A stretch of DNA of 60,243 nt, the filler included, from Sphacelaria rigidula (taxonomy: Eukaryota), in the NCBI GenBank assembly GCA_964200075.2. It is 7 parts of 7 records of this genome, joined end to end, with 100 filler letters (N's around TTAATTAATTAA, not from the genome) between each part and the next. Parts side by side here need not be neighbours in the genome. Positions count along the whole stretch, not along the records: positions 34,486 to 43,005 come from CAXNAA020010900.1; 6 more parts are not named here. One strand, given 5' to 3'. Under the pieces are notes generated by a model that was given only the letters and a program-made list of their open reading frames with translations, did no database searches and was not told where the DNA came from. Numbering within the stretch: the stretch's first letter is position 1; every line of letters starts with the position of its first letter. A program made the position numbers and the translations under genes. Below, piece by piece: positions 8,523 to 56,814 of the stretch.

Positions 8523-8622
8523 NNNNNNNNNNNNNNNNNNNNNNNNNNNNNNNNNNNNNNNNNNNNTTAATTAATTAANNNNNNNNNNNNNNNNNNNNNN
8601 NNNNNNNNNNNNNNNNNNNNNN
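8523..8622. other. Artificial contig linker (N44-TTAATTAATTAA-N44)
   Basis: 100-nt spacer with stops in all six frames. Identical spacers at 17145-17244, 25766-25865, 34386-34485, 43006-43105 and 51625-51724. The segments between them decrease steadily from 8522 to 8519 bp. Confidence 0.98.
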
Positions 8623-16590: not shown

Positions 16591-18244
16591 AATGGGTTCG
16601 AGTGCCCGAATATTCCCAAAGAGGGGTTGCGATAAATGATCAATTGCGGTGGGGTACCTCCCACGAGGACAGCGTGTGCACAAGAGTTTGGTTTTATTAT
16701 ATTTGCACAGAATATCATTCGGCATTAACGAAGAGAGAGGTGGATAACTCATATTCTTCTACCGTGAATGTGACAGGTGTCCACGACCGTGAGCTAATCG
16801 CAGGGATAGGCGTAGACGCTAATGCCGCCTCAGAGAGTCCTCATGCCGACAAGGGAGTTTTGTCGATACGTTGAGCAGATGAAACCTCTGAGAAGGATCT
16901 TGTGTCTCCGAAGATCCTCTCATGAGACGAGAAAAAAAAATCTGTGGTTCGTTTACGGGGGTCAGGAGGAGAGAGTTTGTGCTGCGGTTTTCAAACCCGG
17001 CATCTCCGGGGAGTGTCAAGTCCACAGAAACATTCAGGCGCATTGAACGTTGGGCCATGACACCTTTGGACTAATGCCGAGATAGCCCCCCCACAAAAAG
17101 TGCACCGGCACCATCCAACGAACCGGCGGCGATCCCACTATTGGNNNNNNNNNNNNNNNNNNNNNNNNNNNNNNNNNNNNNNNNNNNNTTAATTAATTAA
17201 NNNNNNNNNNNNNNNNNNNNNNNNNNNNNNNNNNNNNNNNNNNNGTGCGCTGAAAAACATGTCGTTGAAAAAATAGGGCAATGTTCCCGTCACCGCTACT
17301 ACTGCTCTCTGTCACACACATGCCAGCAAGGATGGTGCTGCGGCAATAACAGATATATCCAATTTGAACTTAGGGGGTGTTATTCATCGTTGATTTTCGC
17401 CGACCTCCTCCAACCCGGGTGGCCGAGCAGAAGGGCGTGCCACACGCCAGTTGAGGGGGGCGTATGAGAGATCAAACACTTGTAGAAACCTATTTGACAT
17501 GCAGAGTGAGAAGAAATACCGATGGTGGTGACATACCTGTGATACCTGTTGCTAGCGTGGCGCTATAGGAGTCCGCCCACGCCGCAACCTGTAGCACACG
17601 CTGGCCGCGTGAAGGACTCCGAACAGTAGTACGAGTAGCTTCCCATTAGTAATAATTATTCCGATGTCAGGAGGTCATGGGTTATTGCAAGTTGGGAGGA
17701 AAGACGAGAGTGCTCTACGATCAACCGCATTCCGTTGCATTCGAGACNNNNNNNNNNCAAGGGTCTTGTGTCTTTCACGCGACGCGGTCGGCAGTACGGC
17801 AGGCAAACGGCATCATTGCTACACTTCCTTCCTTTACCACGCGTCCTCTCGGCTGCTCAGATGTGGTCACGACAACAACATGCACCGAAGTCGCAACATC
17901 TGTGAAAGCTTTAGAGTTTGATATGCATGAAGTCCATCCACAAAATTAAAACGGTTCTCAAAACCTAAGGGAAGGTGGCCGCTTCGGGTCCAGTTAAACA
18001 TCCAAAGACACCATCGGACAGCAATACGAAACCTTTCCGGGATCAGCATCAGGCAGTGCTTGAACAACGGAACAGAAATCGACAAGTTATAGTTCGTACT
18101 AGACAACAATGCGCGTGGAACGCTTTGCAGCTTAGAAAACACAGATTTTGATGGAAAGAAACTTCTCCGGGCCCCCATGTGTGTTGTACCCGCCTGTAAA
18201 AGTCTGTCCTCGTTCATCGATGCCTGGCTGGGAGACAGGGAAGC

Positions 18245-18528
18245 CGATCACCGAACGTATTGGGTCCTAGGTGGAAAACCAATTTTGGGGAATTCCGCGT
18301 GTCCGAACGGACGCCAAAATGGTTCCGAAATTGTTTTTTCACCTAGGACCCAGACATTTCGGTGATAGAAATCCAAATTTCTGTGGCGTGTAGCAGTTGT
18401 CAATAGCTATTAGTAGGTGAAGAAATGGAAAAATATGTCAAATATTTAGTGTGGATAGGAAGATTTCAATCCGCCGGTTTTCTCATCCCCAATAACAATT
18501 CCGTCCCCAATTTGTAAGATCGCGTGTT
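18245..18528. mobile_element. Partial copy of the 445-bp foldback MITE
   Basis: Matches 33402-33846; ends in TTTGTAAGATCGCGTGTT. Confidence 0.8.
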
Positions 18529-25015: not shown

Positions 25016-26560
25016 GTGGGCAACTCTATCTTCGCGGGCGCCATTCAAGGATGTATGTAGACTTCTGTCACTCAAGATCAGATTGCCATGTGGACTCCTC
25101 CCATCACGTGCACATGGACAGCAGCTTTAGTTATTTATGTAGTAACCCTCATCAAAGTACAGGAGAACAGGACCATAGACTCTCTCCACCAGAGTGGCAA
25201 AACCGGCTCTACTCGTCATGGACGTCACCATCACAGAGTCCGGCAATCAGACCCGCGACTCTACCTACAATGTCCCTCACCTTAGGTAACAATGGTGGCT
25301 AGAGTCTACAGCACCCTCAAAGCTCTCTACTATCAGCAAGTAGTTACATCAGAGCTTGACAAACTCAGACATCATTGGTGCCTGATAGTACCGTCGTTTT
25401 CCGCAAAGAATAGCAATCTCTTCCGCTGCTTTCGACAACAGCTCCATACAAGCTTGCCCTACTTCCGAACAACTCGCAAGAGATCCCCAGAAAATATCAT
25501 TCATCATGAACATGCAATCACGCTACTTGCACCACTTCGAGTTACAAAGCGATAGGTAGCGCCGAATTCACAAATCTTCGCCCAAACCAAGTCTCTTGAC
25601 TATTCATCGGCACGAAACCGGAAATGTCAGCAAACGGCAAGTTCCAGAGCAGTCGTGACTCATCGTCCCTCTCATCCGAGACAAGGTACTTCTCAACACA
25701 CCACATGCACTCTTTGTACGTTCAACACCTGCGCAACGAAGTGCAACAGCCAAATGATACATCATNNNNNNNNNNNNNNNNNNNNNNNNNNNNNNNNNNN
25801 NNNNNNNNNTTAATTAATTAANNNNNNNNNNNNNNNNNNNNNNNNNNNNNNNNNNNNNNNNNNNNAGGATGACTCATATGGAGGGTAGGTGGGAACCCCA
25901 CGTATATATATATTTCTTATCTTGGCTTCCCATTTGTTTTTCGTGTGGTTTGGTTCTGTACTTTCTGCGGCTACTTTATTCTTCTCGTCTACTCCAGTAT
26001 TTTCACCAATTTCTACCCCTTTGTGTGTTTCCTTTTTTGCACCTTGTTTCCTGGGTTGTACGCACCTTGCGACCTTGGCTGAATTAGAAGCGGATCGGTG
26101 CATGCGAGACAATCAATCTAAAAGCCATTCATCAATTAAATGTCAGTTTTCCGTTTGTCGTTGTCCTTGGACACGAGTTCTCGACATCTTGGAACAGGCG
26201 ACGAGTGAACACGTCATGTGATGTCGTGACTTGTCACTTTGAGTATGACGAGATGCATCTGCATCGACCTTCGCAGGATGCGCGCGACGTACATTAATTG
26301 TGCCAGATGATGATGGATATTCGAATCAGCAGGTTGCCTGCCATATGTCTTATCTATGGGGCAGTGGGGGGGCGGCACATGGCACAAGATGTCGTACATG
26401 TAGTGCGCAATGATATACATTGATGCACCCTGTACGACAAGAGGAAAATACGGCATTCAAGGATCCTAATGTAGGCAGGTAGTATTTCGTATGTATATAA
26501 CATGCATATAGTGATCGGTGGATCCGTATCCGGTCGAAAATGGCATCCTTGCCGGGTATT

Positions 26561-33401: not shown

Positions 33402-33846
33402 AACACGCGATCTTACAAATTAGGGATGGATTTTTTATTGGAGATGAGAAACCCGGCGGAATAAAATCTTCCTATCCATACCGAATCTTTGAAATACTGT
33501 TCCATTCCTTCACCTACTGATAGCTATTGATAACTGCTACACGCCACAGAAGTTTTGATTTTGATCACCGAAGTGTCGGGGTCCTAGGTGAAAAACCGAT
33601 TTCGGAACCATTTTGGCGTCCGTTCGGACACCCGGAATTCCCCAAAATTGGTTCTTCACCTAGGACCCCAACGTCTCGGTGATCGAAATCAAAATTTCTA
33701 TGGCGGGTACTAGTTGTCAATAGCTATCAGTAGGTGAAGAAATGGAACCGTATTTCGAAGATTTGGTGTGGATAGGAAGATTTTAATCCGCCGGGTTTCT
33801 CATCCCCCAGTAAAAGATCCATCCCCAATTTGTAAGATCCCGTGTT
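33402..33846. mobile_element. Complete 445-bp foldback MITE, near-palindromic, candidate 4-bp TSD CATA
   Basis: AACACGCGATCTTACAAATT...AATTTGTAAGATCCCGTGTT with ~195-bp arms. CATA at 33398-33401 and 33847-33850. Partial copies in contigs 3 and 5. Confidence 0.88.
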
Positions 33847-34228
33847 CATATCAGAATAGAATCTCGTCAGCACCCGCGGTCTGGGAAATGGAGACTCGAT
33901 GACCTTGTGACCAGCTGCACCGTGCAGCTAGGGCTCTGTTGACACAGCTACGCAGCTGTTCGCTGCGTGTAATGGGTCGAGCGACAGGGAAGGACTTCCC
34001 AAGTGTACACAGTGGGACTTCAATTCCTTGAAATCCTACACAGCTTGGGGTGCGGTGCTGTGACATCTACACTAGATGGGGTGCGGTGCTCACTCTGCCA
34101 TAAGCATGTATTTCATCCGCTATGGGTCCGTTTGCTCCGTGCGATGGCTTGAACGATAGCTAGAGACTGTGTGAGAGGTTTCCATGTGTTGCTGTGTCCA
34201 TGCGGGGCTTGTGGGACGGATGCTGAAT

Positions 34229-34311: not shown

Positions 34312-36106
34312 AAACAAATTGTGCGAATTGAGGTTTAACTCCGAGATGAGGTTCAAGCCTACAACAGTGCTTTCCCCACACTTTCNNNNNNNNNNNNNNN
34401 NNNNNNNNNNNNNNNNNNNNNNNNNNNNNTTAATTAATTAANNNNNNNNNNNNNNNNNNNNNNNNNNNNNNNNNNNNNNNNNNNNTACCTCCATCACTTG
34501 CGTATGCTTACAGCTACATGTCGATATCCTACCCAGGGAAAGCAAGGGCCTCAGTGGCCAGCTATTGCAGAAATCATGTTGTGCCTCGTGGAAGTGCATT
34601 TGGGAACTGAAACGAGTCATTCACTGATTGACCGCTTTTCACTCTCAATCGTATCATCTACTCTCAATCTCACGAAAACACTGTTAGGTTTCGTTTCCCG
34701 GCCCTTCCAGCCCCCAACATATTTCTTCCCCTTAGCCTTGTTAAAAGGCTGGGGGGATGTTCCAGATTTATCGGTTTTTGTCCAGTCGAGTAGACTTCAT
34801 GTGTCATACTCTTCCTTTGTTTAGCCCACAGGTCATGGACCATTCTCTGAGTCTGATTGGTTTTCCGGGATTGCCCCCAACTAGGCTGACAGTCTTTTGA
34901 GAACTCATCTCAACACGCGATTTGCAGCTACCAGCCTGTTGCCAATAATACAAGAAGCATCAACACTATCACGGACTGCGATCTCAGAGAATTTTCTGGT
35001 CTTCACATAATGTAAGCAAGACAACTGTCATGATTTGTTGTTATGGCGTCCGAGCGGCTCATCGGGTATGCAGCCCGACGCTGCGAACATGGCTGACTCT
35101 GCACTCGGTAAAGTCGAGCTCAATGGATTCGATATCCATGATTGTGTTTGAGCCCGCTAGCCCAGGTGCCCACTGAACTGGCACCATTCCCAGCTAGGCG
35201 GTGAGTATCGAACCATGACAGGAGTGATCAATACGTCACGGATGACAACAGTCGACACAATAGTCGCGGTTGGAAGCACCATGATACAAACAGAAATATG
35301 TGTTGCCCATGGTTGTTGTCAACATTGCGTATCTCTACTATGCAAGCCAAGTACTTGAGCGAAGCAACAACATAGTTTCGGTCATGTAAGTTACGAAGTT
35401 TCGCTAGCTCATGCGTATACGACTTATCCTTATTATATGACTACACATTCCAACCATCCGTTTGGCACAAAGTTCATATTTTTACTATTATGTCTACCTC
35501 CCGCCATCTGCTCATTGCTTGAATCGAACATCGTTCCTGTCTCACCGTTATTTCTGAAATAATCGTAAGCTCACAGCACGTGGGGAAAGTCCAACGCAGA
35601 ACGATACACGCCGAGCGTCAGGACATTCTCGATCACAGCTTCAGGCCGATTCGTTTTCCCTTTTTTTGGTGGCGTCAACTTGCAATTCGAAAGAAGTGAA
35701 CACCAGGGTGATAACACCCGGTTGGGCCGGTCCTGGGAAAGAACCGGATTCACCCAGATTAAAGAGGCATGTTTATGTATTCCGTCTCTTGACGGATTAC
35801 ATCACATCCTCACCCCTGACTGCGATACTAGCCAGTTCCCGCAATCAGCCCTCCGGGCGCGTAGGGTCTTTTTGAATCGACGGCCCATCACCGTACTACC
35901 CTCATCCACCACGCCACGCCGCGATCCGTAACAAGAACCCCGCATGTTGCGTGTTGTACCAAATAGTATATACCGTACCAGTTCAAAAACGGATACGCAT
36001 TACATGTACGCCACCGACATGCTCTGGTTATCATGAACTGTGTACGAGGCGCGGGAAGCGTAGTTCTTGTCAGGGAATGCTAGGATGCAACCATACTGGA
36101 GTACAG

Positions 36107-36452
36107 AACACTGGATCTTACAAATTGGGGATGGCTCTTTTATTGAGGATGAGAAACCCGGATAATTCAAATCTTCGTATCCACACCAAATCTTCGAAAT
36201 ATGCTTCCATTTCTTCACCTACTGATAGCTATTGACAACTGCTACACGCCATAGAAATTTTGATTTCGATCACCGAAATCTTGGGATCCCAGGTGAAAAA
36301 AACAGTTTTGGTGAATTTCGGGTGTCCGAACGGACGCCAAAATGGTTCCGAAATTAGTTTTTCACATAGGACCCCAACATTTTAGTGGTCGAGATACAAA
36401 TTCCTATGGCGTGCAGCAGTTGTCATCAGTAGGTGAAGAAATGGAACCATTT
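36107..36452. mobile_element. Truncated copy of the 445-bp foldback MITE
   Basis: Starts AACACTGGATCTTACAAATTGGGGATGG and matches 33402-33846. Confidence 0.8.
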
Positions 36453-36639
36453 TTCGACGACAAAACTAGATGCGCACCCGGGTGCACCATCTGCACCCTC
36501 GGATAATGGCAAAACACGTGCGGCTGGCCTGTGCTGCATGACCACCCCGACCGTGATGACTTGGATCACATTTTCAATCGGAGCCAGCACAACCAACGCA
36601 GAACATAGTCAGCAGTAGAACAGTAATATGATATAGCAC

Positions 36640-39600
36640 TCTCTCTCATATATCACTGCCCGTTGCGTGGTCGCGTCTGCGTGGCTTCCCACTACCAGCT
36701 CGAAGATAAAACTGATCTGTGTTGTCATCGGCACTGGCGCCGCCCCGCTTGGTCGCTGGCCCGTCACCACCGCAAGATATGTGCGCGGGGCCGCCTCTGC
36801 CATACCCCCGTCGTCGACGCGTCCGCATGCCGCACTTGCTGCCGGCGGCGGCATCGCCGGTCCCCCCTCCCCCCACCTGCTTGATGCCGCCGGTGAATTC
36901 CACTGGCTGGCCGCAGCCGCGAGCCCGCCGCCGACAACACTCGCCCGTGAAGCTGCCCCTGCGGTGGTACCCCCCGCTGCCCCCCACGGTAGCTCGCCCA
37001 TCATCGCTGCCGCATTCCACTGCGGGATCGCACTTCCCAGACCGCAAGCAACAGCACCGGCGCCTACCGTCGCGTCTCCCATCACCACCGCCGCTCTGTC
37101 GCCCCTTCGCTCGCCTGATACCGCCGCCGCCGCAAACTGCTGGGCGGGTCTTCGCACACCATCACCCACCGCGCTCGCGTTGGCGGTACGTCCTACCAAC
37201 GCCCCCCCACTTCTCAGCGCTGCGGCTTCGCGTTTGTTGGCAGGCCCCTTTACCCCCGCACTGTTCGCGCCCGCTCCGGGCTGCGTGTCCCCCGCAGCCT
37301 CGCCCCTGGCGGTTGCCGTCGTCGCCACTCTACCTCCCTGCTCACGTCCCACGTGCCCCCCTGCTCCGAATCCTGCCGCAGTCGTCGACGCCAAGCCTCT
37401 GATAACAGGCGGCATGCTGGCCCCGTGAGCGACGATCAAAGGTCCTTCATAGTTGCCGAGTAGTATCCGCTTGAATACACCTGTGGCCAGGTAATTTCGG
37501 ACAACTTTGTTGTTCTCGCGAAGCATACTCTGGAAGTGTGGCCCGCGGGGTAGAGGCTTCGTGGATCTTGGGCGGAACTTCATGGCGCATCCTTCGATCT
37601 TCTCCGTTCGCCCTCGTTGCTCGGGCGCCTTGATTATTCCCACCATGTCGGGGTCGTCGTGTGCCAGCACAAGCAGCTCGGTCTTATCGTTCGTCCACTC
37701 AGCACGCACCTTCGCCGCGTGGTACGCTTCGACCGCCGGGTAGCCATCCTCTGTGACGGTTTGAGGTGGTTCCCTGTGCGCCTCCACGGCATAGTCCACG
37801 GCATGCCCGTGGGCCATGTAGTACGGTTCCGGCTGTTCTGCATCGGGGCAGACAGATCTTATCCATTGCACGGCAAGACTTTTGTTTGAGTGCCCTAAGT
37901 CTGAGCAGGCAACGCGGCGGGCAGGAATCGAGTCGGGAACGGGGTGGGATGGGCGGAACGTGAACGCGCGTCACGGTGATATGCTTCGTTTGTCTTATGT
38001 CTGTTTCGAGTACTCGCTGTGGAAATGTACTGTAAGTCGGAAAACCGGTGTTCCACAGCTGTACTTTCCTGCCCGTATAGTCGGGATTAGGAAGTGCATT
38101 GCCTTGTGCCGAGGCGGCGGCGCCATCGGTGTTCGTGTCCCCCCACCCCCCCCGTCACCGCCTCTTCATAGAGGGATGTGAATTACGGCTCTCACCTCCT
38201 TTAGAATTCAGAAGACTGAATGGTACAGACGCCCCCAGCTTCAGAAGCACCCTCTCCTTCTCCTCCTGGGAAATATTCGGCGCCCCCACGATCCCTCGCA
38301 ATGCTGTCAGCAGCTCCTGCGTGTAAATTGTATTGTTCTTCGTGTTGGACTTCAATGCCGAGCTTCTGCCCTGCGGGTTCGTGGGTTTCATCGCACCATT
38401 CCGGGACGGGATCGTATATACCTTCTGCTTTGTTGCGCCCTTTTTGGTCTTGTCGCCCAACACGTAACAGGCGATATTATCCTGGAGCTTCTTCTGAGAC
38501 ACTTCGCAGCACGACAGAACGGCCGCTGCCTGCGGACCACTGACCACTCGCCCGTCTAGCGCATGCAGGACCTCTTTGCCAGCCGGCGTGAAGGCAGGAG
38601 CTCCGTGTAGCTTGTGATACGCCTTCGTCACGTGGGGTTCACGCTTGAGGTATAGCTCTCTTGCGGGGTTCCGCCCGGCGCCCTCCCCGAAGAACAGTTG
38701 TTTCTTCACTTCCTGTTCTGCCGCGTCTCGGCATTCCGCGATAGGAGCAAGCTTCTCCACCGCCGTAGGGATCTTCTTGTTGACGAGTTTTTTGAAGAAC
38801 CTGTTCGCCATCTCCTGCCGCTCGTCGAGCCCCACTCTTGCCCAACTCCTGTTGTCACGCAACGTCACGGAAAATAACTGCTCCACGATCTTCAGGTCGG
38901 ATTCCGGCATCTGCGCCATATGCATGAGGTGAAGGACCACCAGCCACTGGTAACGGTCCTTGCCGGTCACGCAGAATATGTCTGCCATGCGGCGAAGGCC
39001 TGCCAGTCGCAGCAGGAAGTTGCCCGTGCGCAGACCAGTCCGGAATGCCATGTACGCTGGATAATAGTGGAGGACGAAGCTCTCCCACACTCGGAAGCTC
39101 TTGTGATTTTCTGCACGCGCCCGAACCCAGGCTCGAATAGCAGGGATGTCTTCCTTCCTCGCATGTATCTTCACCTTATCCGCTATATCGCAGAACTCCT
39201 GTGCCAATTGCTTGACGGTTTGATCGAGGGGATCATGATCGCTATCGTGCTCGGGACGCCGACCCTCGGCCGCCGCTGCCGCTGGCCCCGTGGTGGGGGG
39301 TGCCACTGATGCGGTGTCGGCTGTGGACTCCGTTCGGCTATCGCCCGACGCCACTGGTTCTGCGCAGCCAGTAGGGGATGATCCAATGCTGACGGCGGCC
39401 GATGCTCCAGCGGCAGGGTCGCCTGTTGCCTCGGCGTCCCCGGCGCCCCCGGCGCCCGCCGGTGTTCTTCCGCCGTCGGCGGTGGGCACGAAATGCGCTG
39501 GTCCAGTTTCTCGGAAGTCTACCAGTCCCGTGCCGGCGTGAAAGACGCAGAACATGGGTGCATCGAGGCCCGCGATGCCATGCGTCGCCTCCCACGAACA

Positions 39601-42600
39601 ATCCTCCCCACGACACTTCAACTGCTCGGCAACTATGGGATCGAAAGGCGGAGGGGCCGGCGATCGCAATGGTTGCCGAGGCGTGCTGACGACGTTTATC
39701 GGCCCCGCAGGACCCGGGGCCGCTGGGGTGTAAGAAGCAGATGCCAGGTAATCACCAAAAGGATGTGCGGCCATCTGCTCATTCTGCATGGGCGGTGCGG
39801 GGGTGGAGCGCGCACGTTGTACTCCAGGGAGGGCGTTCGGCGGAGTAGGACTTCCTCCCGCGGCGCCATGCAGCGGGGCGGCTGATGCCGCGGGGTTCGG
39901 CAGTGGCACTGTGGCGGCAGCCGCAGCTTCAGCAGCCGACCCCGCCGCAGCCCCGGGATTGGTGTCCTCCACACGGGGTCCACGCTCGGAGTAGTACATG
40001 GCCACGATTTTGTCCCACATGGCTTCGAAGAACACGCAGATTGTGTGGTGTACAACACGGTAGTTGCTAGCCTCCGACGATTTCCTCCCGTCGAGCCCAA
40101 GCGCCTCCGCTACATATTCTATCCCCGCCCCCCAAAATCGCTTCATGATTGCCTTCACCATGTGATACAGGAGATGCCAGTCACCCATGTATATCCGGAG
40201 CCATTGGTATTCGCGGGGGTTACTCCGAATGAGGTGGTACATAAACCGAAACGTCTCCTCGTCACCGGCAACCATACACGCCGCAGGCGCGCCCCTTTCA
40301 CCCACGCGACGTATATCAGCAATGCGGTCAATCGCGGCTTTCGAGTCGGCCCAGCTCTTCGTGCTCCCCAGCTGCATGAAAAGGTACTTGAACACCTGGG
40401 GCTCCCGCTGCATCGTAGGTATTGCCTGCCTCGCAAATTGGACGGAGCGGCGGAGAGAGGGGTGATGAGGTCGCTGTTGCACAGTGTTGCATATTTTCAA
40501 ATCACAACTTGAACCCCGCCCCTGTGGGGATAGTATCCGCCGAGTGAAGGGATCACACCGTAATTTCGCTGCTGCAACCCACGCACACGGACATATTGCG
40601 TAGGACAATCATTCCCGCGTAGCTCGCGCGATGCTGCCGAAGTTAGTGCTGCATCTGATGTTGTTACGTGAGGTGAAGGCGACAGTGTGATCCCTCGGTG
40701 GGGGCAACGATATGGCATCCACAGGGAAATTTAACCCTCCCTACTCCCGCGGAATCCATGGCGGGTACTGTGTGTGGATCGGCGGGACTCCACGACTGCG
40801 GGGGTGCAAAGCTGGTGCTGACACGCGAGAGACGACGCTAGAGGTAAGTGGCGGTACACCCCACCGCCGCCGGCGGAGAAAAATAATTCGATTTCGCACA
40901 GGCGTTCAAACGCGGAATACAGGCCAGGCACAGATAACTAATCTCACCTGTCGAAGTTCGAGTTCCAAGCAAGTGTCGATGGAGCCACCCCCGCCCGCGA
41001 TCCTTCCCACGGCGCATCGAAAAGCTGCTTCGTCGAAGACGGAGAGGTACTTATCCCATTGCTCGCCATCCATGTGCCAGTGTGGTCCCATCGTCACATC
41101 CGCGGCCACGAGCTGATCTTGCTTGCGATGGTCCCGCACGAGAGACAGGTCACCACACGGGGTTTCTACAGCCACGCAAGTGGCAGCCACAGCACACACA
41201 TGCACATCCCCCTCGGTAACAGCCATCGTGGCCCGAAAATCGCAGTTGTCCCAAGAGATCGCAGCAGCTCTTAACGCCAGGGCCAACAGATGTTTGTCTA
41301 ACCTCAACTTCACGAAGTACTGCTCGCGTTTGTATCGCATAGACTCGGTCATGCAGAAGCCGTGGGCGGCGATGTAATCTATCATCGCGACGGGTGTGCC
41401 GTGCGTTTTCAACACCTGCGCCAAACTGAAGTCGTGCATCGCCCTGAATTTCCGACCTAGAACAGTTTTGAGGAGATTTAGTCCAGCATATAAAGCCTCC
41501 CAAGGTGCCTCTTTCTCTTCCTCTCCTTCTTCCGCAAAGCCTTCTCCTCCTTCGTCGATCTGTGAATCGTTGCGCTGGCACTTGACTCCCCCATAGCGCT
41601 CGTACTTGACACACCCGTGATCATCGTTCTCGCGTTCCCCCCGCCCGCGAGCCCCGACCCGGGGTCATCAGCCGGTACCGCCACATGGCACATACTGTCA
41701 ACCAAGTCCAACAGTGTCGACGGTGTATCATGCTCCAGAAAATCCTTCACAGGTCAGATTTTTCTCTCCAAATCGGCAGCATATTTTTCACTCGCTTTTC
41801 CGGACACATTATGCAGTTCAGACGCACCTTCGATATCCATCCTGACGATAGATCCGGCCGCTCTCACCAACGCCCGTTTCTCCTCCGCGGACCCTTCAGC
41901 TCTGACGCGCTTGAGTGCGGACACGAGTGGCGGACCGTTGTGGAGCTGGGCGTCCAGGAGAGAGACCGTACGTTCGAGTTCTTGTACCCTGGCACGCATA
42001 GTTATAAGATCGATATCAAGTGCCATGGCTACGTCGGGCGCCACCGCCGAAGGCAGCAGATACACGGACTTCCGTCGGCCACCACCTGCGGCCTCCCCAC
42101 CCCCACTGACCTCTTCCATCTTGGCGTAGGCTGTGCCGTCCCTCACCACCGCGCCGTAAATTACCATAGACTGATCCCGGTTGCGCCGGTCACCGACATC
42201 CCGGGCCCGTGCGGCCTCCCTAGCTTCTGTCAGCCACGATTGAACCTCCCCCAGCCTCACTATTCCCCCAGCCTCAAGGTTCGCTATTACTTTCCCGCGT
42301 ACTTCTACGACGAAGTCCGGATCGGCAGGGGTAGGATCAGGAGTGAGGTCTACCCTTGGAGGTGTGGAACAACACGCACGAGTGGTTTTGGGATTTTTCC
42401 TATCGCTGTTGCGTCTGTATCGCTCGAAGGAGGACATAAAGCAATTATTCCGCCCGCACAAGCAATCGGAACTAGGTGGGTAGCTCCGTAGAAGCACCAC
42501 GGGACGCGTGCTGGTGCCATCCACACACTGCAGGAATACTTCCGCGCCTGCAACCCGCGCAGGACCGAGATGCAGCCAGGTTTTTCCTTCGCCGGGCCCC

Positions 42601-42794
42601 GGTCGATGGCACGCCACGCATAGCCGCGATGCTGGGTCGTGCGTTTGACCACAAGATGGGCACATATACCACTGGCCTTCCATGAGGGGGTACTTGATGC
42701 CGCATTCATCGCGACCACAGGCCCGCTTCGGTCGTCCACGATGGCTGCTCCCACTAACGGGTTTCGAGTGAGCCTGTGCCGACTGCTCCGTCAC
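36640..42794 (-). pseudogene. Large spliced putative DDE transposase gene (DUF6589 / RAG1-Transib-like core, EsV-1-7 motif, PIN-like region), mildly disrupted
   Basis: Model: 42794-40948 (in-frame TGA at 41754-41756, frameshift near 41500), GT-AG intron 40947-40474 (phase 0), exon 40473-38196, GT-AG intron 38195-37901 (phase 1), exon 37900 to ~36640. Both splices keep frame. Motifs in order: SWDNCDF, VAGDEETF, MGDWH, TGKDRY, LDERQEMAN, PFSLLNSKGDLGHSNKS, LAHDDPDMVGIIKAPEQRGR. The 5' end probably runs off the contig. Confidence 0.72.
39513..39620 (-). other. Single EsV-1-7-like cysteine-rich motif
   Basis: 'KCRGEDCSWEATHGIAGLDAPMFCVFHAGTGLVDF' fits C-x4-C...G..G...FC..H...G(M/L)V(D/N). Confidence 0.75.
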
Positions 42795-43130
42795 ACAGCT
42801 ACCACGATTTTCGGGATGCCCCTGTGCACCACTGCGTCGCGCCGTTACCCTCGTTCGTTCACCGTGACGTCGACGCCTTCCACAACGACCGTTGGCGGGT
42901 GAGGTTTGCTTTCTCCAGCCCTCATGACATCGCCACTAGCCCCAGTCGTGGGCATGGACGTAACCCACTCATCTTCACACCCCGCCGCAGATGCGCTGCC
43001 GCCGTNNNNNNNNNNNNNNNNNNNNNNNNNNNNNNNNNNNNNNNNNNNNTTAATTAATTAANNNNNNNNNNNNNNNNNNNNNNNNNNNNNNNNNNNNNNN
43101 NNNNNGGGCGGGCGGGGGGGGGGGTGGCTT

Positions 43131-50542: not shown

Positions 50543-51724
50543 CCCCCCACCCACCCACTCACCCCAAAACGCCGGTCCGTTTAGCACCAAAATGTAGGAC
50601 CCCGAGAAATCAAAAGGTCAATCCGTTTCTAATTTTTTTTCCGGGTGTTTTCGCGGTTGTATTATACAAGCCACTCCCTTCCTTTCAGGCCAAACTTTGG
50701 GCCCGCGCACGTGTCGCGGATCATTCTGCTTTTTTCTTTAGAATCTTTGTGGGTCAGAACGACTCGAAATGTCTGTAGGGGCTTTGGTCGTTGGCAAGTG
50801 CTGCTATAGATTTTGCCAATCATGTTGGACGCACGAGTGCGCCTGTGCTCGGCGGCATCCTGGTTCAATCCCTTCGGGCAACAGAACAATTGTCAAGGCC
50901 TCTTCCATAGACATTGAACAAAAAACAAATGTTACACCTAACCCATGCTTGCTCATCCAGCCATATGTAGTCGCTGGCAGCGATACACTTTGCAATATAC
51001 TACTCGAAGGTCTGATCTAAAAGGGACGGGAAAGCGACGCTAGCTGACAAGACACCGCTGGGGTGATGAATCTGATGCTATCAAGAAAATGGCTCCACCA
51101 CCATCTCCACCATAACTACTCCGTTTTGTGCGTTCTTTCATCATCGGCCAGTGACCCGTACGTTCGCGAGCACGGCCCAGGCAGAATTTCTCGCCTCCAG
51201 CGGCTGCGCATGGACCTGAGGGGCTATGGGACGGGGAAGACAAAGGACGAGTGCGGGACGGAGGCGGATGGCAGGGCGATATCGAACAGGTATACTGTAG
51301 TCTGCATTGGTTGCGGAGACAGTCCAGTCCATGCTAAACCGACGAGAAAACGCAACTTCGTGTACTGTAGGGTATGTCGGCTAAAACCTCGGGTATCTAC
51401 AACAGTATAAACGAGGAGGATTTCATTGTCAAGTATCCTTCCGCACCATGACGGAGTGTTTGGGACAGGTATCGATACCCTGCCGAGCCATACCGTATTA
51501 TTCGGCACGCTTTCCGGTGTGGAGTGCCAACAAAATGGGTACCCCCCCCCCCCCCCCCCGCGCGGAAGGCAGGGAAAAGCCATCGTGCACCCGTCCCGGC
51601 CAGGAACGATGGGACGGGAAAGCGNNNNNNNNNNNNNNNNNNNNNNNNNNNNNNNNNNNNNNNNNNNNTTAATTAATTAANNNNNNNNNNNNNNNNNNNN
51701 NNNNNNNNNNNNNNNNNNNNNNNN

Positions 51725-51871: not shown

Positions 51872-52227
51872 ATCCCCCCCCCTCATCATAGCATGACTTT
51901 TGAGGAAAACAAAACGTTTTGTATTGCATCTGCTAAACTTCGCCATGACTAATTCCAAGATGCACCAGTTGGACCAATTGGACGCGGTGGCTATGCGCCT
52001 TGATAAAAAAATAAACGTGAGTACCTCGTGTTCCTCACATCCAGTTCCGAGCTATATTACACAACGGCGCTGTTCCCAAGAACTTTTAGGGCAATTCCTT
52101 TTCTTCAGCCTCGTGGCTAACCACCACTGAAAATGGCTCAATACCTCGTCCCTCACTTGGGGTACAGTGTGGCCACCTAGCTATCCCAAAACCCTTCACC
52201 GTACCCCCCCTCCGCCACTTCTCATAC

Positions 52228-54313
52228 CTCCTGATACTTGTGCGGCTTCGGTAATCGCTCCTCCCTGCCTTCACTTCGCCCCGCACCGAGACCTCGCTCG
52301 TCGGGATGGTAAGGATTCCCGACGCCAGCGAAATTTTGCTCCCGTGTAGGCTTGTCACCATCATATCTGCCTCTACCCGTCGCACCATTACTATTACGAC
52401 CGCCGTCGCCGCCGTCGTCGCTTTTCAAAGCCGAAGGATTCGCTTCGATACGCGTCGTCTCCGCAAGCTTCGTCTTGATTTCCTGCTCCCTCGATGACGC
52501 TGCAGGCGATTTCCCGCTGTTTCTGTTTTCGTTGCCGCCTCGTTGCCGCTGCTGCTGCTGCTGCTGCTGCTGCTGCCGTTTTGATTTTTTTTTCGGACTC
52601 ACCGCCGCCATGGTGAGCTGCGGGTACAACGTTGGTTCAGAGCAGCTTTCGACTCCGCCGCCGCTGCTCAAAGTAGGGATGCCATTTCCCTCCCTGTCGT
52701 TGCTACCCGCCTGATTTTCTCCTAACCTCGTACCTAGAGGCGTAGTAGCGCGTGGGAGTTGGTGAGAGAGCCCGTCGAGCACTTTCGACGTGGTTCGTCC
52801 CGGACTCGGTCGCCCAACATTTGCTACTGAACTTTTCCCGACTGAATCTTCGGAGGTAGAAGCGTCGTTGGTGCGAGTGAGTCCACTTATCCCTGCGGTG
52901 CCTCGTTCGCGAGACTCAGCCAGGTGTGGCACTGTTTCTAGCCGCAACGCAGAATCGCCCTCAATACGCTGCATCCAGCCCCCACTCTTTGGTCCACCCC
53001 CGCCGGTATCGGTTTGTTCACTTCCGCCGCCGCTAGAGTGAAATCCGTGGGGCTTGACTGACGAGCCTCGACTGATCGGAAACGGCCGCTGTTGGTTGGA
53101 CTGCTGCGCGGAGGGATTTACGCCGATGCGTCGTCGATCCCCCGCGGCTGTTGCAGCCACCGCAGCCGCCGCCGCCGCCGCTGCCTTCGATGCCTGGTGC
53201 TCGTGACCCTCACCCTCCGTCGTGCCATCGGGAGGGTGGCGCCGTACCATTGGGACCTCAACCACCACCTGACGCCGCCCGGAATCGTATCCCCTTTTCC
53301 TCCCCACCCCATCTCCGAATGCTTGATACTTGTTCGTGTCGCCGAGTTCCAGTCTCGATCGCTTTCTTCCAGAGGAGGAACGACGAGAGTTAGACGGCTG
53401 GGGGTCTCTACCCTCACGCAGAATACTCGAGGACGATGTTGTCTCGCTTCCATGTCGGCCTTCGCCCTCGGAACTTCGCCGACGGGTGTCGGTGCTTCGT
53501 GATGCCCCCACCACAGTACTCCCGCCCAGCGCTTTCGCCGTTGCTTCCGTCGTCGCATGCGCTGTCGCCCGCCTGGGTAGAACTTCCTGCACGCTTCCAC
53601 GGGTATCACGATTACCCCCGCCACGACTCCTACGATATTCCTGTTGCCGATTAGACTCCTGATCTCCGCCACACCCACGTTTGCTGTCCTCGTCACCGTG
53701 CCCACCCACGGCGGCAGCGTACGCCGAGCCACTATCTCCGCCTACTGGCCGCAGTTCTTCGCCGACCGTTTCCTTTCCGGAGGTGGCGGCCGCGATGGGA
53801 ACTGTCGGGCCGGGTGGAGAGCTGTCTTGCATCGCCTTGCCCTCCGCCGCCTTGTCCTGGGCTACCGCCCCTCCTCCCCCAATGTCGGGCCATTCTCGCG
53901 GTCGGCGGCGAATCCGATGCCCGTTCGGGCCCGGACCTGCGATAGGCGTGTCGATCTCGTCGGCAGAGCTGTGTCTGTTGTTCTGCTGTGGTGGGCGGTG
54001 GACGCGATCCTGACTTCGGCGACGGCTGCTGGTATTGTCCGTCGAGACCGCGGCGACGGTGGGAACTGCGACACTGAGTTGTGGCGAAGGGCTTGCGGAA
54101 GGGTGGGCTGTGGTGCCAGTATCTTGTCGGTGCTCCGAACCGGTGCCGTCGGAAGTATCGCCTGTTTCATCCGCGGGGTTGCCGGCGGCCTTGGCTTGGT
54201 CGGCTTTGGCCTTGGCTTCGTGATCTTCTCGCAAACGTCGTTTCAGCGTCATATTTAATCGGACGGTGATGTTAGTCAGCCTCTTGATTTCTTTTCTCTG
54301 GGCTGCACATAGC
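52228..54313 (-). CDS. Large internal exon of a host gene: coiled-coil start, long disordered region, ends '...PHKYQE'; candidate CtIP/SAE2/COM1 homologue
   Basis: About 2.1 kb of open frame with acceptor TTTTGCAG| at 54314 and donor GAG|GTATGA at 52227. Splices in frame to the exon at 57319-57411. The product assignment is inference only. Confidence 0.75.
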
Positions 54314-56814
54314 CTGCAAAAACAACAGAGTAAGCGATTGACATGGTACAGCAGCACAGTTTAGAGGACAAACTTGAGTAGCTACTACAGCAGAGTACCA
54401 TTTGCCCTGTCTGTAGCGTGCAGTATAGTAGACGAAATTAAATGAAGAAGATGAAGGTGTGGTCAACATAGCTGAACAAAGATTACAAGAGCATTTCTAC
54501 GCGGGGAGCCCTCTCTTTCTTTTTATCTCGCTGGTGGTGCAGTATCCAACCCGCTAACTCCACGGTGTTGCGCGCGCCCGCATCCGCCTCTTGCAAGTGA
54601 TCTGTCATATGTCCATCATCATTTTCATTTTCATTGTTTTCAGTGTCTACTTCGTCAATTACTTATTATCATTTCTCACAAAAAAACAAGTGTTCGCCGT
54701 CCTCCAATTTGACCCCGGCTGATGCACCCTCATATATCAAAAAGTGTAACTGGCGTCCAAAATAAACGGGGTGACAACACCGCAGCAAACATACACCGCG
54801 CAGCACTGTTTCCGATACAGGCAGTAGTGGTGGACGGTGTGGTCCAGACTGTGGCACAGACAATACTGTACGGGAGGTACTGTGTACGGGTGTTCGAGAC
54901 CACTATTATACTGTTGTCTTGAAATCAAGACACATGTTGTACGTACTGTATATTCCTGCACTCAAATAGAGTACTCGATTTTTTCAAGTCATCCTCGCGT
55001 CTCTTCTCATTATGCCAGAATGATTATTGTGCGCTCACCTGGGAGGCGAACCCCCTCCCCTCCCCGTTACCCGCAAAATAAACGAAGGAGAGAGACAAAG
55101 GCGAACACACTCCGGCCTTGTAGTGGGTATTTATATACTGTGAAGGCAAGAGTCACACGGTTTTAAATTGATATTCCTTCAAACAAGGTAGAAATTTGGG
55201 TGTTTCCTTTCGTGTGAGTTTGTCGAGCCTTTCTCCATTGAATGATATCTTGGCTTCTGCAGCTAGTTGGTGGTCGTTGACCTGTGTATGTGCACATGTG
55301 AGTTATGTTGTGGGTGTGCGTACCGTCGCCTGCGTTATCTGCTGGCTCTTTTGTGCTCGGGTGGGTTAAAAAATGGTGTGCCGGCTCTCTCCTGCGCGGG
55401 TGGAGTCGAAAATGGTGTCGGTTGGACCGGCGGGTCTACCTTATTGGTTGAAAGCTGACGGGCAACCAATCGGAAGGACGAAAGAAGAATAAATAACGAA
55501 AAACACCAGAATAATTATCATTATCATGGCGCGCTCTTACTTTTGTTCTGTTAACACAGGCTCATACTTCCGCATCAACTCACACCTCCCCTCCGACGTT
55601 TTCTCCCCAATTCCCCATGTGCTATTTCTTTCTCTTGCTTTTGTTGATGACGGAGGGTTGGTCGGGAGACTCCTTTGAGGGACCGGCTGTGACACCCCAG
55701 TTCTCCTCGGCCACATGTACGATTCGAGCGCTCTCTTTGCGCTTATGATTCGAATTGGAATGCAATGGACTGTAACCTTCCTTTTCAAGACACGACCCGT
55801 GATGGGGAAAAAAAAAACAAGCATGATTTTCCTGTAGCTTTTGACGGGAAGCTTGCAAAGCACTCGAAAAGCAATCTAGCCCCAAAATGTGTCGGCGGTG
55901 TGTAGGTGTGTGCGGCGTCTGAAGAGGGAGGGCGTCACCTTACACGATTTCCGCATGTCAAGGATGTAGACTGAAATCAAGTGCATCGAAGGAAACGAAC
56001 GAGTGGTCCATGGTCGGTAAAATGTTGTCGAACAATCCAGACACTTTTCGGAGGCCAGCATCCCCCCCTGCGCTCCCACTAGCATCCCCAACGGTAAGGC
56101 CTCCCTTCTTCTCTCGTAGTGGTGAAGGTTAGCCGTGGGATTGGAAGTTCTTATTGTCTTATATCGATAAATGATGATTTATGCCTGGGTCATTGGTATG
56201 TTTTTCGCTAAGTTGTTCAAAAACCTCCACGCACCCAAGACCGGTCGCGGGGATACTTGCGCTTCTGCTGCCACGTGCGTCAGCCGTGGCTTACCACTAG
56301 GTCGAAAAATTACTCTGTTATATTGGGTAAGGCCGGGTCTTGTACAGATCAGCCGTTTCTCACAATCAAATCACAATGATTCAAAACAAGTTTGTGGCCA
56401 CAGCCACCAGTTTGAGTCCCCCCACAAACAGTTTCTCTTGTCCAGATCAAAGCCTGGATCCTCATACGGGTTCGAAAAAGCGGCGGTTCTACCAGTGGTC
56501 CCTGGTGCAACATCATTTTTTTATACAAAAAAGTCGCGGTGAGGCAACGCAGCACATACACATAAGCCCCGCCACCCGCCACTCACGCACATCACTCCAG
56601 CGCTAGCCCTTGATCATGTAGATATGACAGTCTAGGTATCGAAGGAAGGGCGGCCGCGTGCGCCTCATCTTACATCCGAAAACCTGCCGTTTGTGACCTT
56701 CGTTGGGTGGGTCTTTGAGGCACGCACGCCTGACACAACTTATTACTTCTCGCTGGTTTCTAGAAAGATCCGACCGAGGCCACGGGCGTACTGGTGAAGA
56801 CCTACAGCTCGAGC

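What the first reader, a model, noticed from the sequence alone, without database searches (positions are those of the whole stretch)
37440..38240. FEN1/XPG-type PIN-like nuclease segment fused downstream of the DDE core
Seen: the phase-1 splice creates 'VPFSLLNSKG-DLGHSNKSLAV', followed by 'HAVDYAVEAH' and 'LLVLAHDDPDMVGIIKAPEQRGR'. After a long Ala/Gly insert comes 'GSHADATTQ' (~36680). Known: FEN/XPG nucleases have 'hhDg', 'VFDG....K....RR' and 'EAD' motifs in this order. Inference: a transposase carrying its own flap or hairpin-processing nuclease would point to an unusual transposition mechanism. The residues are divergent, so the domain may be inactive.
Basis: inference. Interest (0 to 1): 0.72.

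Follow-up and report, generated by a model that had tools for sequence, protein, structure and literature searches.

The report
Truncated transposase-fused 5' nuclease remnant
The flagged stretch is the first half of a very divergent FEN/XRN-type DNA- or RNA-cutting domain that a brown-alga jumping gene carries fused to its transposase, but this copy has lost the second half and cannot be active.

Summary
The junction is collinear with paralogous and orthologous gene models.

The 159-residue segment (37898-37420, minus strand) has 49 relatives, all named ones from brown algae. Longer relatives continue into GEAE, SVDTD and GCDF/Y motifs.

A model of one intact relative matches 5' nucleases in three structure searches. 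XRN1/XRN2 come first, then EXO1, FEN1, GEN1 and XPG. Seven acidic columns are conserved in the canonical order. No sequence library recognises the domain.

So the nuclease reading holds at superfamily level, although the nearest fold is XRN rather than FEN1/XPG.

The window's copy is cut. Homology to an intact Sphacelaria paralog ends at 36723, and no second half lies anywhere in the window. This copy keeps 2 of 7 acidic residues.

The upstream part is a DUF6589-like putative DDE transposase. A transposase-nuclease fusion is already described for AcademX transposons. Membership there got only weak support.

This scan earlier found Harbinger-type algal transposons with a separate EXO1-like nuclease gene, on other DNA.

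Verdict: a real feature, a decayed copy of an apparently undescribed family of a known kind.

The parts
37420..37898 (-). N-terminal half of the FEN/XRN-like 5'-nuclease domain. First acidic motif: AVDYA within 37805-37776. Second acidic motif plus the K..EQ.GR helix: 37676-37608. Last strand before the linker: PLIVAHG, 37442-37422.
   Evidence: 49 homologs. Alignment to intact relatives. The D, D, K, E and R columns are kept. Coordinates. Model pLDDT 77.8.
37901..38195 (-). Phase-1 GT..AG intron between the transposase exon and the nuclease exon. The deposited model P0001 uses 37895-38186 instead.
   Evidence: Sequence. The junction is collinear with P0002, P0072 and the Ectocarpus models. 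No RNA evidence was obtained.
36723..37419 (-). Ala/Gly-rich expansion of the disordered linker that separates the two halves of the nuclease domain in this family.
   Evidence: P0004 is 52% identical over 37955..37143. P0073 residues 1-44 are 93% identical to 36854-36723. The linker is the low-confidence stretch 139-165 of the P0036 model. Composition.
36609..36722 (-). Sequence past the break, with no homology to the family.
   Evidence: tblastn of P0073 stops at 36723. The second-half profile finds nothing here; best E in the window is 2.9.
38197..40608 (-). Long ORF holding the central and C-terminal part of the DUF6589-like putative DDE transposase. Motifs: GDEETF 40272-40249, GDWHLLYH 40185-40162, GLDERQEMANR 38832-38800. 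It also holds the conserved linker that runs into the nuclease exon.
   Evidence: Pfam PF20231 at E 1e-4 to 3.7e-5, below its cut-off. P0001 is the gene model of this locus. Atlas neighbours are DUF6589 clusters. The catalytic assignment of D, D and E is inferred and was not tested.
40948..41664 (-). Upstream exon/ORF with 'ISWDNCDF' (41259-41236), the inferred first catalytic Asp. It is joined to the next exon by a GT..AG intron, 40426-40947.
   Evidence: P0001 residues 1-152 map here. One contig of run X1 (RNA only by guess) joins 40947 to 40424. Sequence.
41754..42935 (-). Upstream ORF on the same strand with a weak zinc-ribbon-like Cys motif. It may be the N-terminal DNA-binding part of the same gene, but this is uncertain.
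   Evidence: Pfam DZR and zinc-ribbon families at E 0.1-0.19 only. It is not part of the model P0001.

Best explanation
The window holds one 3'-truncated copy of a multicopy brown-alga DNA transposon. Its single multi-exon gene fuses a DUF6589-like, probably Academ-related, DDE transposase to a C-terminal 5' nuclease of the FEN/XRN (PIN-like) superfamily.

The flagged segment (37898-37420) is the first half of that nuclease. It comprises:
- strand 1 with the first Asp;
- strand 2 with the second Asp;
- the K..EQ.GR helix;
- the helices up to the strand PLIVAHG.

In intact relatives a disordered linker follows. After it comes the second half, with GE(A/G)E, S(V/I)D(T/I)D and an H3TH-like GCD(F/Y/C)LP motif, and then a Cys-rich tail.

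In this copy the linker is expanded to about 230 Ala/Gly-rich residues. The gene breaks at 36723, so 5 of the 7 acidic positions are missing and this copy cannot encode an active nuclease.

Inferred, not shown: in intact copies the DDE domain makes the 3'-OH cuts and does strand transfer. The fused 5' nuclease handles the other strand, either by cutting or trimming the 5' non-transferred strand at the transposon ends or by removing 5' flaps at the gapped target. In this role it would resemble the separate nuclease TnsA of Tn7.
For: Homology:
- The segment has 49 relatives at E<=1e-3.
- Of 23 relatives of P0023, 18 carry names, all from brown algae (Ectocarpus, Pylaiella, Scytosiphon). The other 5 are unnamed.

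Fold, using the model of intact relative P0036 (pLDDT 72.8, pTM 0.70):
- VIA-align against 48,161 chains: ranks 1-15 and rank 17 are all 5' nucleases. XRN1 Z 9.2 (rmsd 5.2, 278 aligned), Rat1 7.9, EXO1 7.5, mycobacterial FEN 7.5, T5 exonuclease 7.5, FEN-1 6.9, GEN1 6.7, XPG 6.7, T4 RNase H 6.6.
- Foldseek against PDB: ranks 1-9 are XRN1, XRN2 or Rat1, best E 1.3e-3.
- Foldseek against BFVD: 10 of the top 11 rows are named XRN or 5'-3' exonuclease, best E 3.4e-4.

Active site: seven acidic columns are conserved in order, counted over rows without a gap: D 20/23, D 22/22, E 15/17, E 15/18, D 15/15, D 14/15, D 14/15.

Fusion:
- The transposase motif GLDERQE and ..NSKG lie in one 817-codon ORF in the window.
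- Ectocarpus models P0057, P0065 and P0055 run from GLDERQEV into GEAEL and SVDTD.

Truncation:
- P0073 matches the window tail at 93% and then continues into GEGE, SIDID and GCDC.
- tblastn and a profile of the second half find none of this in the 60-kb window.

Transposase:
- PF20231 at E 1e-4 to 5e-6.
- Atlas neighbours: 21 of 30 hits are DUF6589 clusters, best score 0.96.
- hhalign against a 77-position piece of a published Academ RNase H profile scores 16.8 (P 0.0011) in the GD / G..H register. None of 300 column permutations reach that score.
Against: - No sequence method links the domain to a known nuclease family. Pfam finds XPG_N, XPG_I, XRN_N or 5_3_exonuc in 0 of 25 members at E<=10.
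- PDB sequence and profile searches found no nuclease. PHROGs and NCBIfam found none either.
- The structural Z-scores (6-9) lie in the range the tool calls middling. The case rests on the coherence of the hit list and on the motif order.
- The H3TH region of the model has low confidence, pLDDT 41-72.
- The window's own half-domain, folded alone, gives no clear match. Foldseek's best E is 0.15. VIA's best is Cas12g at Z 5.3, with a plastid exonuclease third at Z 4.6.
- The same Academ profile piece run with hmmsearch scores the window ORF at noise level, E 5-7.
- The DUF6589 matches are below Pfam's cut-off.
- The DDE fold and the catalytic triad were not tested.
- All fusion evidence comes from predicted gene models.
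- The role in transposition is inference only.
Confidence: 0.8

Rival explanations
1. The segment is only a conserved, non-catalytic C-terminal region of the transposase, for example for DNA binding or multimerisation. The motif resemblance to nucleases is then coincidental.
For: No Pfam, PDB-sequence, PHROGs or NCBIfam match to any nuclease. The half-domain model finds nothing clear.
Against: The full domain of relatives matches 5' nucleases in three structure searches. Seven acidic columns are conserved in the canonical order.
Confidence: 0.05
2. The domain is a true XRN-type 5'-3' exoribonuclease acting on RNA, for instance on the element's or the host's transcripts. It would then not be a DNA-processing partner of the transposase.
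For: XRN1, XRN2 and Rat1 are the best matches in every structure search and align over more residues than the FEN-type enzymes do: 260-288 against 159-203.
Against: It is covalently fused to a transposase-like protein in a multicopy element. Fold similarity does not fix the substrate. DNA enzymes of the same superfamily score within about 2 Z units.
Confidence: 0.08
3. The transposase-nuclease fusion is an artefact of gene prediction: two neighbouring genes of one element, or a host gene beside a transposon, merged by annotators and by the reader's splice.
For: All joined forms are predicted models. No RNA read across intron 38195..37901 could be found. No single model holds the complete architecture.
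Against: - In the window, the transposase motif GLDERQE and the residues up to ..NSKG share one uninterrupted ORF. Only a 295-nt GT..AG intron, which keeps the frame, separates it from the nuclease exon.
- The junction is collinear in Sphacelaria paralogs and in Ectocarpus.
- The same order recurs in several genera.
Confidence: 0.05

Closest known systems
AcademX lineage of Academ DNA transposons (Kapitonov & Jurka 2010; Kojima 2020, Mob DNA 11:15)
   Same: Eukaryotic cut-and-paste elements whose transposase comes with a nuclease.
- From a passage read in PMC10045372: AcademX makes 3-4 bp target duplications and encodes a nuclease; AcademH makes 9-10 bp duplications and encodes a helicase.
- From my recollection of the Kojima 2020 abstract, which is not held here: the nuclease is XPG-type and sits in the same protein as the transposase.
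- The upstream core here shows weak but above-control similarity to part of a published Academ RNase H profile.
   Different: - The nuclease here is not recognised by any XPG model and is structurally nearer to XRN.
- Academ's reported range of animals, fungi and one red alga is recalled, not read. Two searches found no paper naming Academ together with Ectocarpus or Phaeophyceae as a brown-alga element.
- Target duplications and terminal repeats could not be examined.
- hmmsearch with the profile piece is at noise level.
XRN1 / XRN2 (Rat1) 5'-3' exoribonucleases
   Same: They are the best structural matches to the intact domain. VIA: Z 9.2-7.9 with 211-288 residues aligned. Foldseek: probability 1.00. 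Giant-virus XRN homologs top the viral library. I recall that the GE.E, D.D and G.DFLP motifs resemble XRN motifs; this was not tested.
   Different: Sequence identity is 11-15% and there is no Pfam XRN_N match. The domain is much smaller (about 340 aa), is fused to a transposase, and has a Cys-rich tail in place of the XRN C-terminal domains.
FEN1 / EXO1 / GEN1 / XPG (Rad2 family) and phage or bacterial 5' nucleases (T5 exonuclease, T4 RNase H, ExoIX)
   Same: Same superfamily fold and the same order of acidic motifs. Z 7.5-5.7.
   Different: They rank below XRN. There is no XPG_N or XPG_I profile match.
Harbinger/ISL2EU-type transposons of Ostreococcus-type picoalgae with an EXO1-like XPG nuclease gene
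   Same: An algal DDE transposon that brings its own 5' nuclease.
   Different: There the nuclease is a separate gene, is recognisably XPG/EXO1, and has a SWIM finger. The transposase is DDE_Tnp_4. I did not check these notes.
Tn7 TnsA (functional analogy only, recalled)
   Same: A second nuclease dedicated to the 5' strand, working beside a DDE transposase that cuts the 3' ends.
   Different: TnsA has a restriction-enzyme-like fold, is a separate protein, and is bacterial.

Membership tests
FEN/XRN-like 5'-nuclease (PIN-like) superfamily | Alpha/beta PIN-like core with helical arch and H3TH-like region, shown by fold match | tested here: met
   Tested on the intact relative P0036, which aligns to the window segment. 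VIA ranks 1-15 and rank 17 are 5' nucleases, Z 9.2-5.7. Foldseek PDB ranks 1-9 are XRN. In BFVD, 10 of the top 11 rows are XRN-type.
FEN/XRN-like 5'-nuclease (PIN-like) superfamily | Fold match of the window's own 159-aa segment | tested here: inconclusive
   Model pLDDT 77.8. Foldseek's best E is 0.15, to unrelated chains. VIA's best is Z 5.3 to Cas12g; a plastid exonuclease is rank 3 (Z 4.6), T5 exonuclease rank 40 and Xrn1 rank 45.
FEN/XRN-like 5'-nuclease (PIN-like) superfamily | Set of about seven conserved acidic metal-binding residues in fixed order (the number and order are recalled) | tested here: met
   In the family, counted over rows without a gap: 20/23, 22/22, 15/17, 15/18, 15/15, 14/15, 14/15.
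FEN/XRN-like 5'-nuclease (PIN-like) superfamily | The same acidic set in the window's copy | tested here: not met
   Only the first two Asp are present. The second half is absent from the window.
Rad2/XPG family proper (Pfam XPG_N + XPG_I) | Match to the family's sequence profiles | tested here: not met
   0 of 25 members at E<=10. None.
Rad2/XPG family proper (Pfam XPG_N + XPG_I) | Closest structural neighbours are FEN1, XPG or EXO1 | tested here: inconclusive
   EXO1 Z 7.5, XPG 6.7 and FEN1 6.3, against XRN1 9.2-8.7. In BFVD, XPG-type rows appear only at ranks 36 and 46.
Academ superfamily (AcademX) | Transposase and 5' nuclease in one protein | tested here: met
   One ORF plus one frame-keeping intron in the window. 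Gene models P0001, P0057, P0065 and P0055. All are predictions.
Academ superfamily (AcademX) | Transposase core matches the Academ RNase H-like profile | tested here: inconclusive
   Only 77 of the 465 profile positions were read, from the supplement of PMC5751038. hmmsearch E 5-7, which is noise. hhalign score 16.8, P 0.0011, with 0 of 300 permutations as high. Profiles of other superfamilies were not compared, so specificity is unknown.
Academ superfamily (AcademX) | 3-4 bp target-site duplications and terminal inverted repeats | not testable with these tools
   This copy is 3'-truncated. No genome is held for the window, and no other copy's DNA was available.
Pfam DUF6589 (PF20231) | Score above the curated cut-off (27 bits) | tested here: inconclusive
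   21.6-25.9 bits, E 1e-4 to 5e-6. P0067 carries a precomputed PF20231.4 label. Atlas neighbours are DUF6589 clusters at 0.96.

The most novel reading that the evidence does not exclude
The family is not an AcademX element with an ordinary XPG domain. Instead, a DUF6589-type transposase has independently captured an XRN-type 5'-3' exonuclease plus a CXC-like zinc module. That would make a distinct class of 'two-nuclease' eukaryotic transposase, in which an exonuclease-derived domain does the second-strand or flap processing.
Probability: 0.25. Interest if true: 0.6.

Novelty: new member of a known kind. Interest (0 to 1): 0.38.

Why it matters
How eukaryotic cut-and-paste transposases deal with the 5' strand is known for only a few superfamilies. 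What the nuclease of Academ-type elements does has, as far as I recall, never been tested.

Brown algae hold many copies of a transposase fused to a compact XRN/FEN-like nuclease that no sequence library recognises. Ectocarpus is a genetic model. Intact copies there would allow a direct test of whether such a nuclease cuts the non-transferred strand or trims flaps.

For genome annotation, the result explains a set of 'unnamed protein product' models in Sphacelaria, Ectocarpus, Pylaiella and Scytosiphon as pieces of one transposon gene.

The copy in this window is a dead remnant and of little interest in itself.

Tried and rejected
- Whole-genome search: no genome is held for this window.
- Viral contigs: 1 pattern hit, no relative.
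- JGI metagenome contigs: the first try failed because the alignment was too diverse. The retry with 8 closer sequences gave 193 pattern hits but no relative.
- Sequence searches for a nuclease family found nothing: Pfam, PHROGs, NCBIfam, PDB by phmmer and by profile (21, 22, 28). The transposase profile against PDB gave only weak G3BP hits at E 0.08 or worse (73).
- RNA evidence for intron 38195..37901:
  - No RNA holder is listed.
  - Contigs of runs X5 and X6 (kind not recorded) run unspliced through the intron, as genomic DNA would. These are X6 record 16, 37717-38271, and X5 record 10, 37762-38183.
  - Run X1 (RNA only by guess) has no cover over 37410-39938.
  - So the intron's use remains untested.
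- 'GSHADATTQ' as an EAD-type motif: rejected.
- MAFFT placed the window's Ala/Gly tail under the GEAE region, but the profile search does not support this. I treat it as low-complexity noise.
- Academ profile piece by hmmsearch: noise level.
- Reading the whole 465-position profile was given up, because it would have needed more supplement look-ups than were left.
- Papers not held: Kojima 2020 and Yuan & Wessler 2011. What I say of their content is recalled. Their supplements, which I could not see, may hold Academ alignments that would settle membership.
- The search 'Academ' + 'XPG' as whole words found no paper.
- Atlas neighbours of the nuclease part are leads only: unnamed clusters at 0.95-0.96, TCR at 0.88, Pox_G5 at 0.84 and XPG_I at 0.81.
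Full report
**What is in the sequence**

The window is eukaryotic, repeat-rich DNA with regularly spaced masked N runs. On the minus strand between about 43 kb and 36.6 kb lies a multi-exon gene.

- The 817-codon ORF 40608-38155 ends in ..VPFSLLNSKG.
- A GT at 38195-38194 follows it. An AG at 37902-37901 precedes ..LGHSNKSLAV.. in the 453-codon ORF 37970-36609.
- Between the last two is a 233-residue stretch that is 25% Ala and 18% Gly.
- A deposited partial protein from Sphacelaria rigidula (P0001, 731 aa) is the gene model of this very locus.

**The splice**

P0001 uses a donor and acceptor shifted by a few bases (38186..37895). It is also GT..AG and phase 1.

It gives a sequence of exactly the length seen in the paralog models P0002 and P0072 (NSNGGLGHSNKS) and in Ectocarpus models (NATGGAKHANKA). 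P0001 is one residue longer. All of these are predictions.

I could get no RNA evidence for this intron:
- No RNA run is listed as a holder.
- Contigs of runs X5 and X6, of unrecorded kind, pass through the intron unspliced, as genomic DNA would.
- Run X1, called RNA only by guess, does not cover 37410-39938.
- One X1 contig does join 40947 to 40424. That is the GT..AG intron which P0001 places between the two upstream exons.

**The segment has real relatives**

phmmer with residues from 37898-37420 (159 aa) against 1.84 billion representatives found 49 proteins at E<=1e-3 and 24 at E<=1e-10. Most are short fragments.

Searching with the longest relative, P0023, gave 23 proteins. Eighteen are named, all from brown algae (Ectocarpus, Pylaiella, Scytosiphon), and 5 are unnamed.

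The longer relatives continue past the segment. After a variable Gly-rich linker they read PLLHFR..RGPDIGEAELS, then SVDTDQWMIILLAM, then LAGCDFLPAISGLPF. A Cys-rich tail follows.

**Is it a nuclease fold?**

Sequence methods say nothing:
- Pfam finds no nuclease family in any of the 25 aligned members, even at E<=10.
- PDB sequence and profile searches find no nuclease (21, 22, 28).
- PHROGs and NCBIfam find nothing (74, 75).

Structure says yes. An AlphaFold2 model of the intact relative P0036, built with a 25-row alignment, has pLDDT 72.8 and pTM 0.70. The N-terminal half is near 90, the linker (139-165) is disordered, and the H3TH-like region has low confidence.
- VIA-align against 48,161 chains: ranks 1-15 and rank 17 are all 5' nucleases. 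The scores are XRN1 Z 9.2, 8.8, 8.8 and 8.7; Rat1 7.9; EXO1, mycobacterial FEN and T5 exonuclease 7.5; plastid exonuclease 7.3; archaeal FEN-1 6.9; GEN1 and XPG 6.7; T4 RNase H 6.6; FEN1 6.3.
- Foldseek against PDB: XRN2, Rat1 and Xrn1 fill ranks 1-9, best E 1.3e-3.
- Foldseek against BFVD: 10 of the top 11 rows are named XRN or 5'-3' exonuclease, best E 3.4e-4. XPG-type rows appear only at ranks 36 and 46.

The Z-scores alone are middling. The weight lies in the coherence of three hit lists, and in seven acidic columns conserved in the canonical order: 20/23, 22/22, 15/17, 15/18, 15/15, 14/15 and 14/15 of rows without a gap. The canonical order itself is recalled.

The nearest solved relatives are XRN-type rather than FEN1/XPG.

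**The window's own copy**

It aligns to the first half only and keeps the first two Asp and the K..EQ.GR helix. Folded alone it gives a confident small model (pLDDT 77.8), but no clear structural match.

The Ala/Gly stretch is a lineage-specific expansion of the family's disordered linker:
- It is shared at 52% identity with the paralog fragment P0004.
- Its last 44 residues (36854-36723) are 93% identical to the start of the Sphacelaria model P0073. That model then continues into PHLLWWRDG..GIGEGEMSTVHF, TSIDIDQW and LAGCDCLP.

In the window that continuation is missing:
- tblastn of P0073 stops at 36723.
- tblastn of all the other relatives finds nothing below 37143.
- A profile of the second half finds nothing in any frame of the 60-kb window; the best E is 2.9.

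'GSHADATTQ' lies past the break, in unrelated sequence that soon runs into a high-copy palindromic repeat. This copy is therefore 3'-truncated. It retains 2 of 7 acidic positions and cannot make an active nuclease.

**The upstream part**

The ORFs carry ISWDNCDF, VAGDEETF, GDWHLLYH and GLDERQEMANR. They hit Pfam DUF6589 just below its cut-off (E 1e-4 to 5e-6). The Ectocarpus relative P0067 carries that label precomputed.

The protein Atlas puts this region next to DUF6589 clusters from arthropods, Basidiomycota and Mucoromycota (score 0.96).

That this is a DDE transposase is inferred from the motifs and the multicopy state.

The fusion to the nuclease is supported in two ways. GLDERQE and ..NSKG share one ORF in the window. 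The Ectocarpus models P0057, P0065 and P0055 run from the transposase part into both halves of the nuclease.

**Comparison with what is known**

A nuclease carried by a eukaryotic DDE transposon is described for Academ. A passage in PMC10045372 says that AcademX makes 3-4 bp target duplications and encodes a nuclease, while AcademH makes 9-10 bp duplications and encodes a helicase.

That the AcademX nuclease is XPG-type and sits in the same protein as the transposase is my recollection of Kojima 2020. That paper is not held here.

PMC5751038 reports that Academ is most abundant in Pucciniomycotina and that in 2017 its core matched no Pfam family (passages).

Its supplement holds an Academ RNase H profile. 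I read 77 of its 465 positions:
- Rebuilt as a profile, this piece scores the window's ORF at noise level by hmmsearch, E 5-7.
- By hhalign it aligns in the expected register, GD to GD and GDWH to G-f-f-H, with score 16.8 and P 0.0011.
- None of 300 column permutations reach that score; their mean is 8.2 and maximum 14.5.

That is weak support, and its specificity against other superfamilies was not tested. Target duplications and termini cannot be examined on a truncated copy without the genome.

Two searches found no paper naming Academ together with Ectocarpus or Phaeophyceae as a brown-alga element.

Earlier notes of this scan describe Harbinger-type picoalgal transposons with a separate EXO1-like nuclease gene. 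I did not check them.

**Mechanism (inferred)**

In intact copies the DDE domain would make the 3'-OH cuts and do strand transfer. The fused 5' nuclease would cut or trim the 5' non-transferred strand, or remove flaps at the gapped target. An RNA-directed XRN-like role cannot be excluded.

**Verdict**

The copy at hand is a dead, truncated one. The kind of fusion is already known. The family itself seems undescribed, is unusually divergent and is XRN-like.

Noticed in passing
36106-36460; copies at 33402-33847 and 18245-18528: A roughly 350-bp palindromic, MITE-like repeat that matches itself in reverse at 74%. Summed contig depth in the DNA-like runs is very high there, 10^5 and more. It lies just downstream of the truncated gene.
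   Followed up: partly
34685-36107: Many contigs of runs X5-X7 join 34685 to about 36107, skipping about 1.42 kb. Here one repeat seems to be interrupted by another insertion, which suggests nested transposons downstream of the break.
   Followed up: no
39514-39615 (minus strand): A weak match to the EsV-1-7 cysteine-rich motif, a brown-alga and phaeovirus motif (Pfam E 0.018, below cut-off). It lies in an in-frame, low-complexity part of the long ORF that the deposited model P0001 splices out.
   Followed up: no
relatives P0054, P0059, P0023, P0063 (C-terminal 100-150 residues): After the nuclease, intact relatives carry a conserved Cys-rich module, C.C....C..C.C....C...CGC...C. The Atlas's nearest named cluster is the tesmin/TSO1-like CXC family at 0.88, a lead only. 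Pfam does not detect it.
   Followed up: partly
40426-40947: One 751-nt contig of run X1 (RNA only by guess) lacks exactly this GT..AG intron. It differs from the window by 9 letters and 2 gaps. Either a transcript or a processed copy of a near-identical element exists.
   Followed up: partly
52222-54360 (minus strand): A 712-codon ORF in a GC-rich (60%) stretch with no Pfam match at E<=0.01. It may be another repeat-encoded gene.
   Followed up: no
8523-8622, 17145-17244, 25766-25865, 34386-34485, 43006-43105, 51625-51724: Paired 44-nt N runs recur about every 8.6 kb. They look like masked or joined stretches of the record rather than biology.
   Followed up: no
BFVD hits of the P0036 model: Alloherpesvirus Allo54 proteins (Cyprinid herpesvirus 2, lake sturgeon herpesvirus) and ranid herpesvirus proteins appear among the XRN-like matches, E 0.03-0.08.
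   Followed up: no
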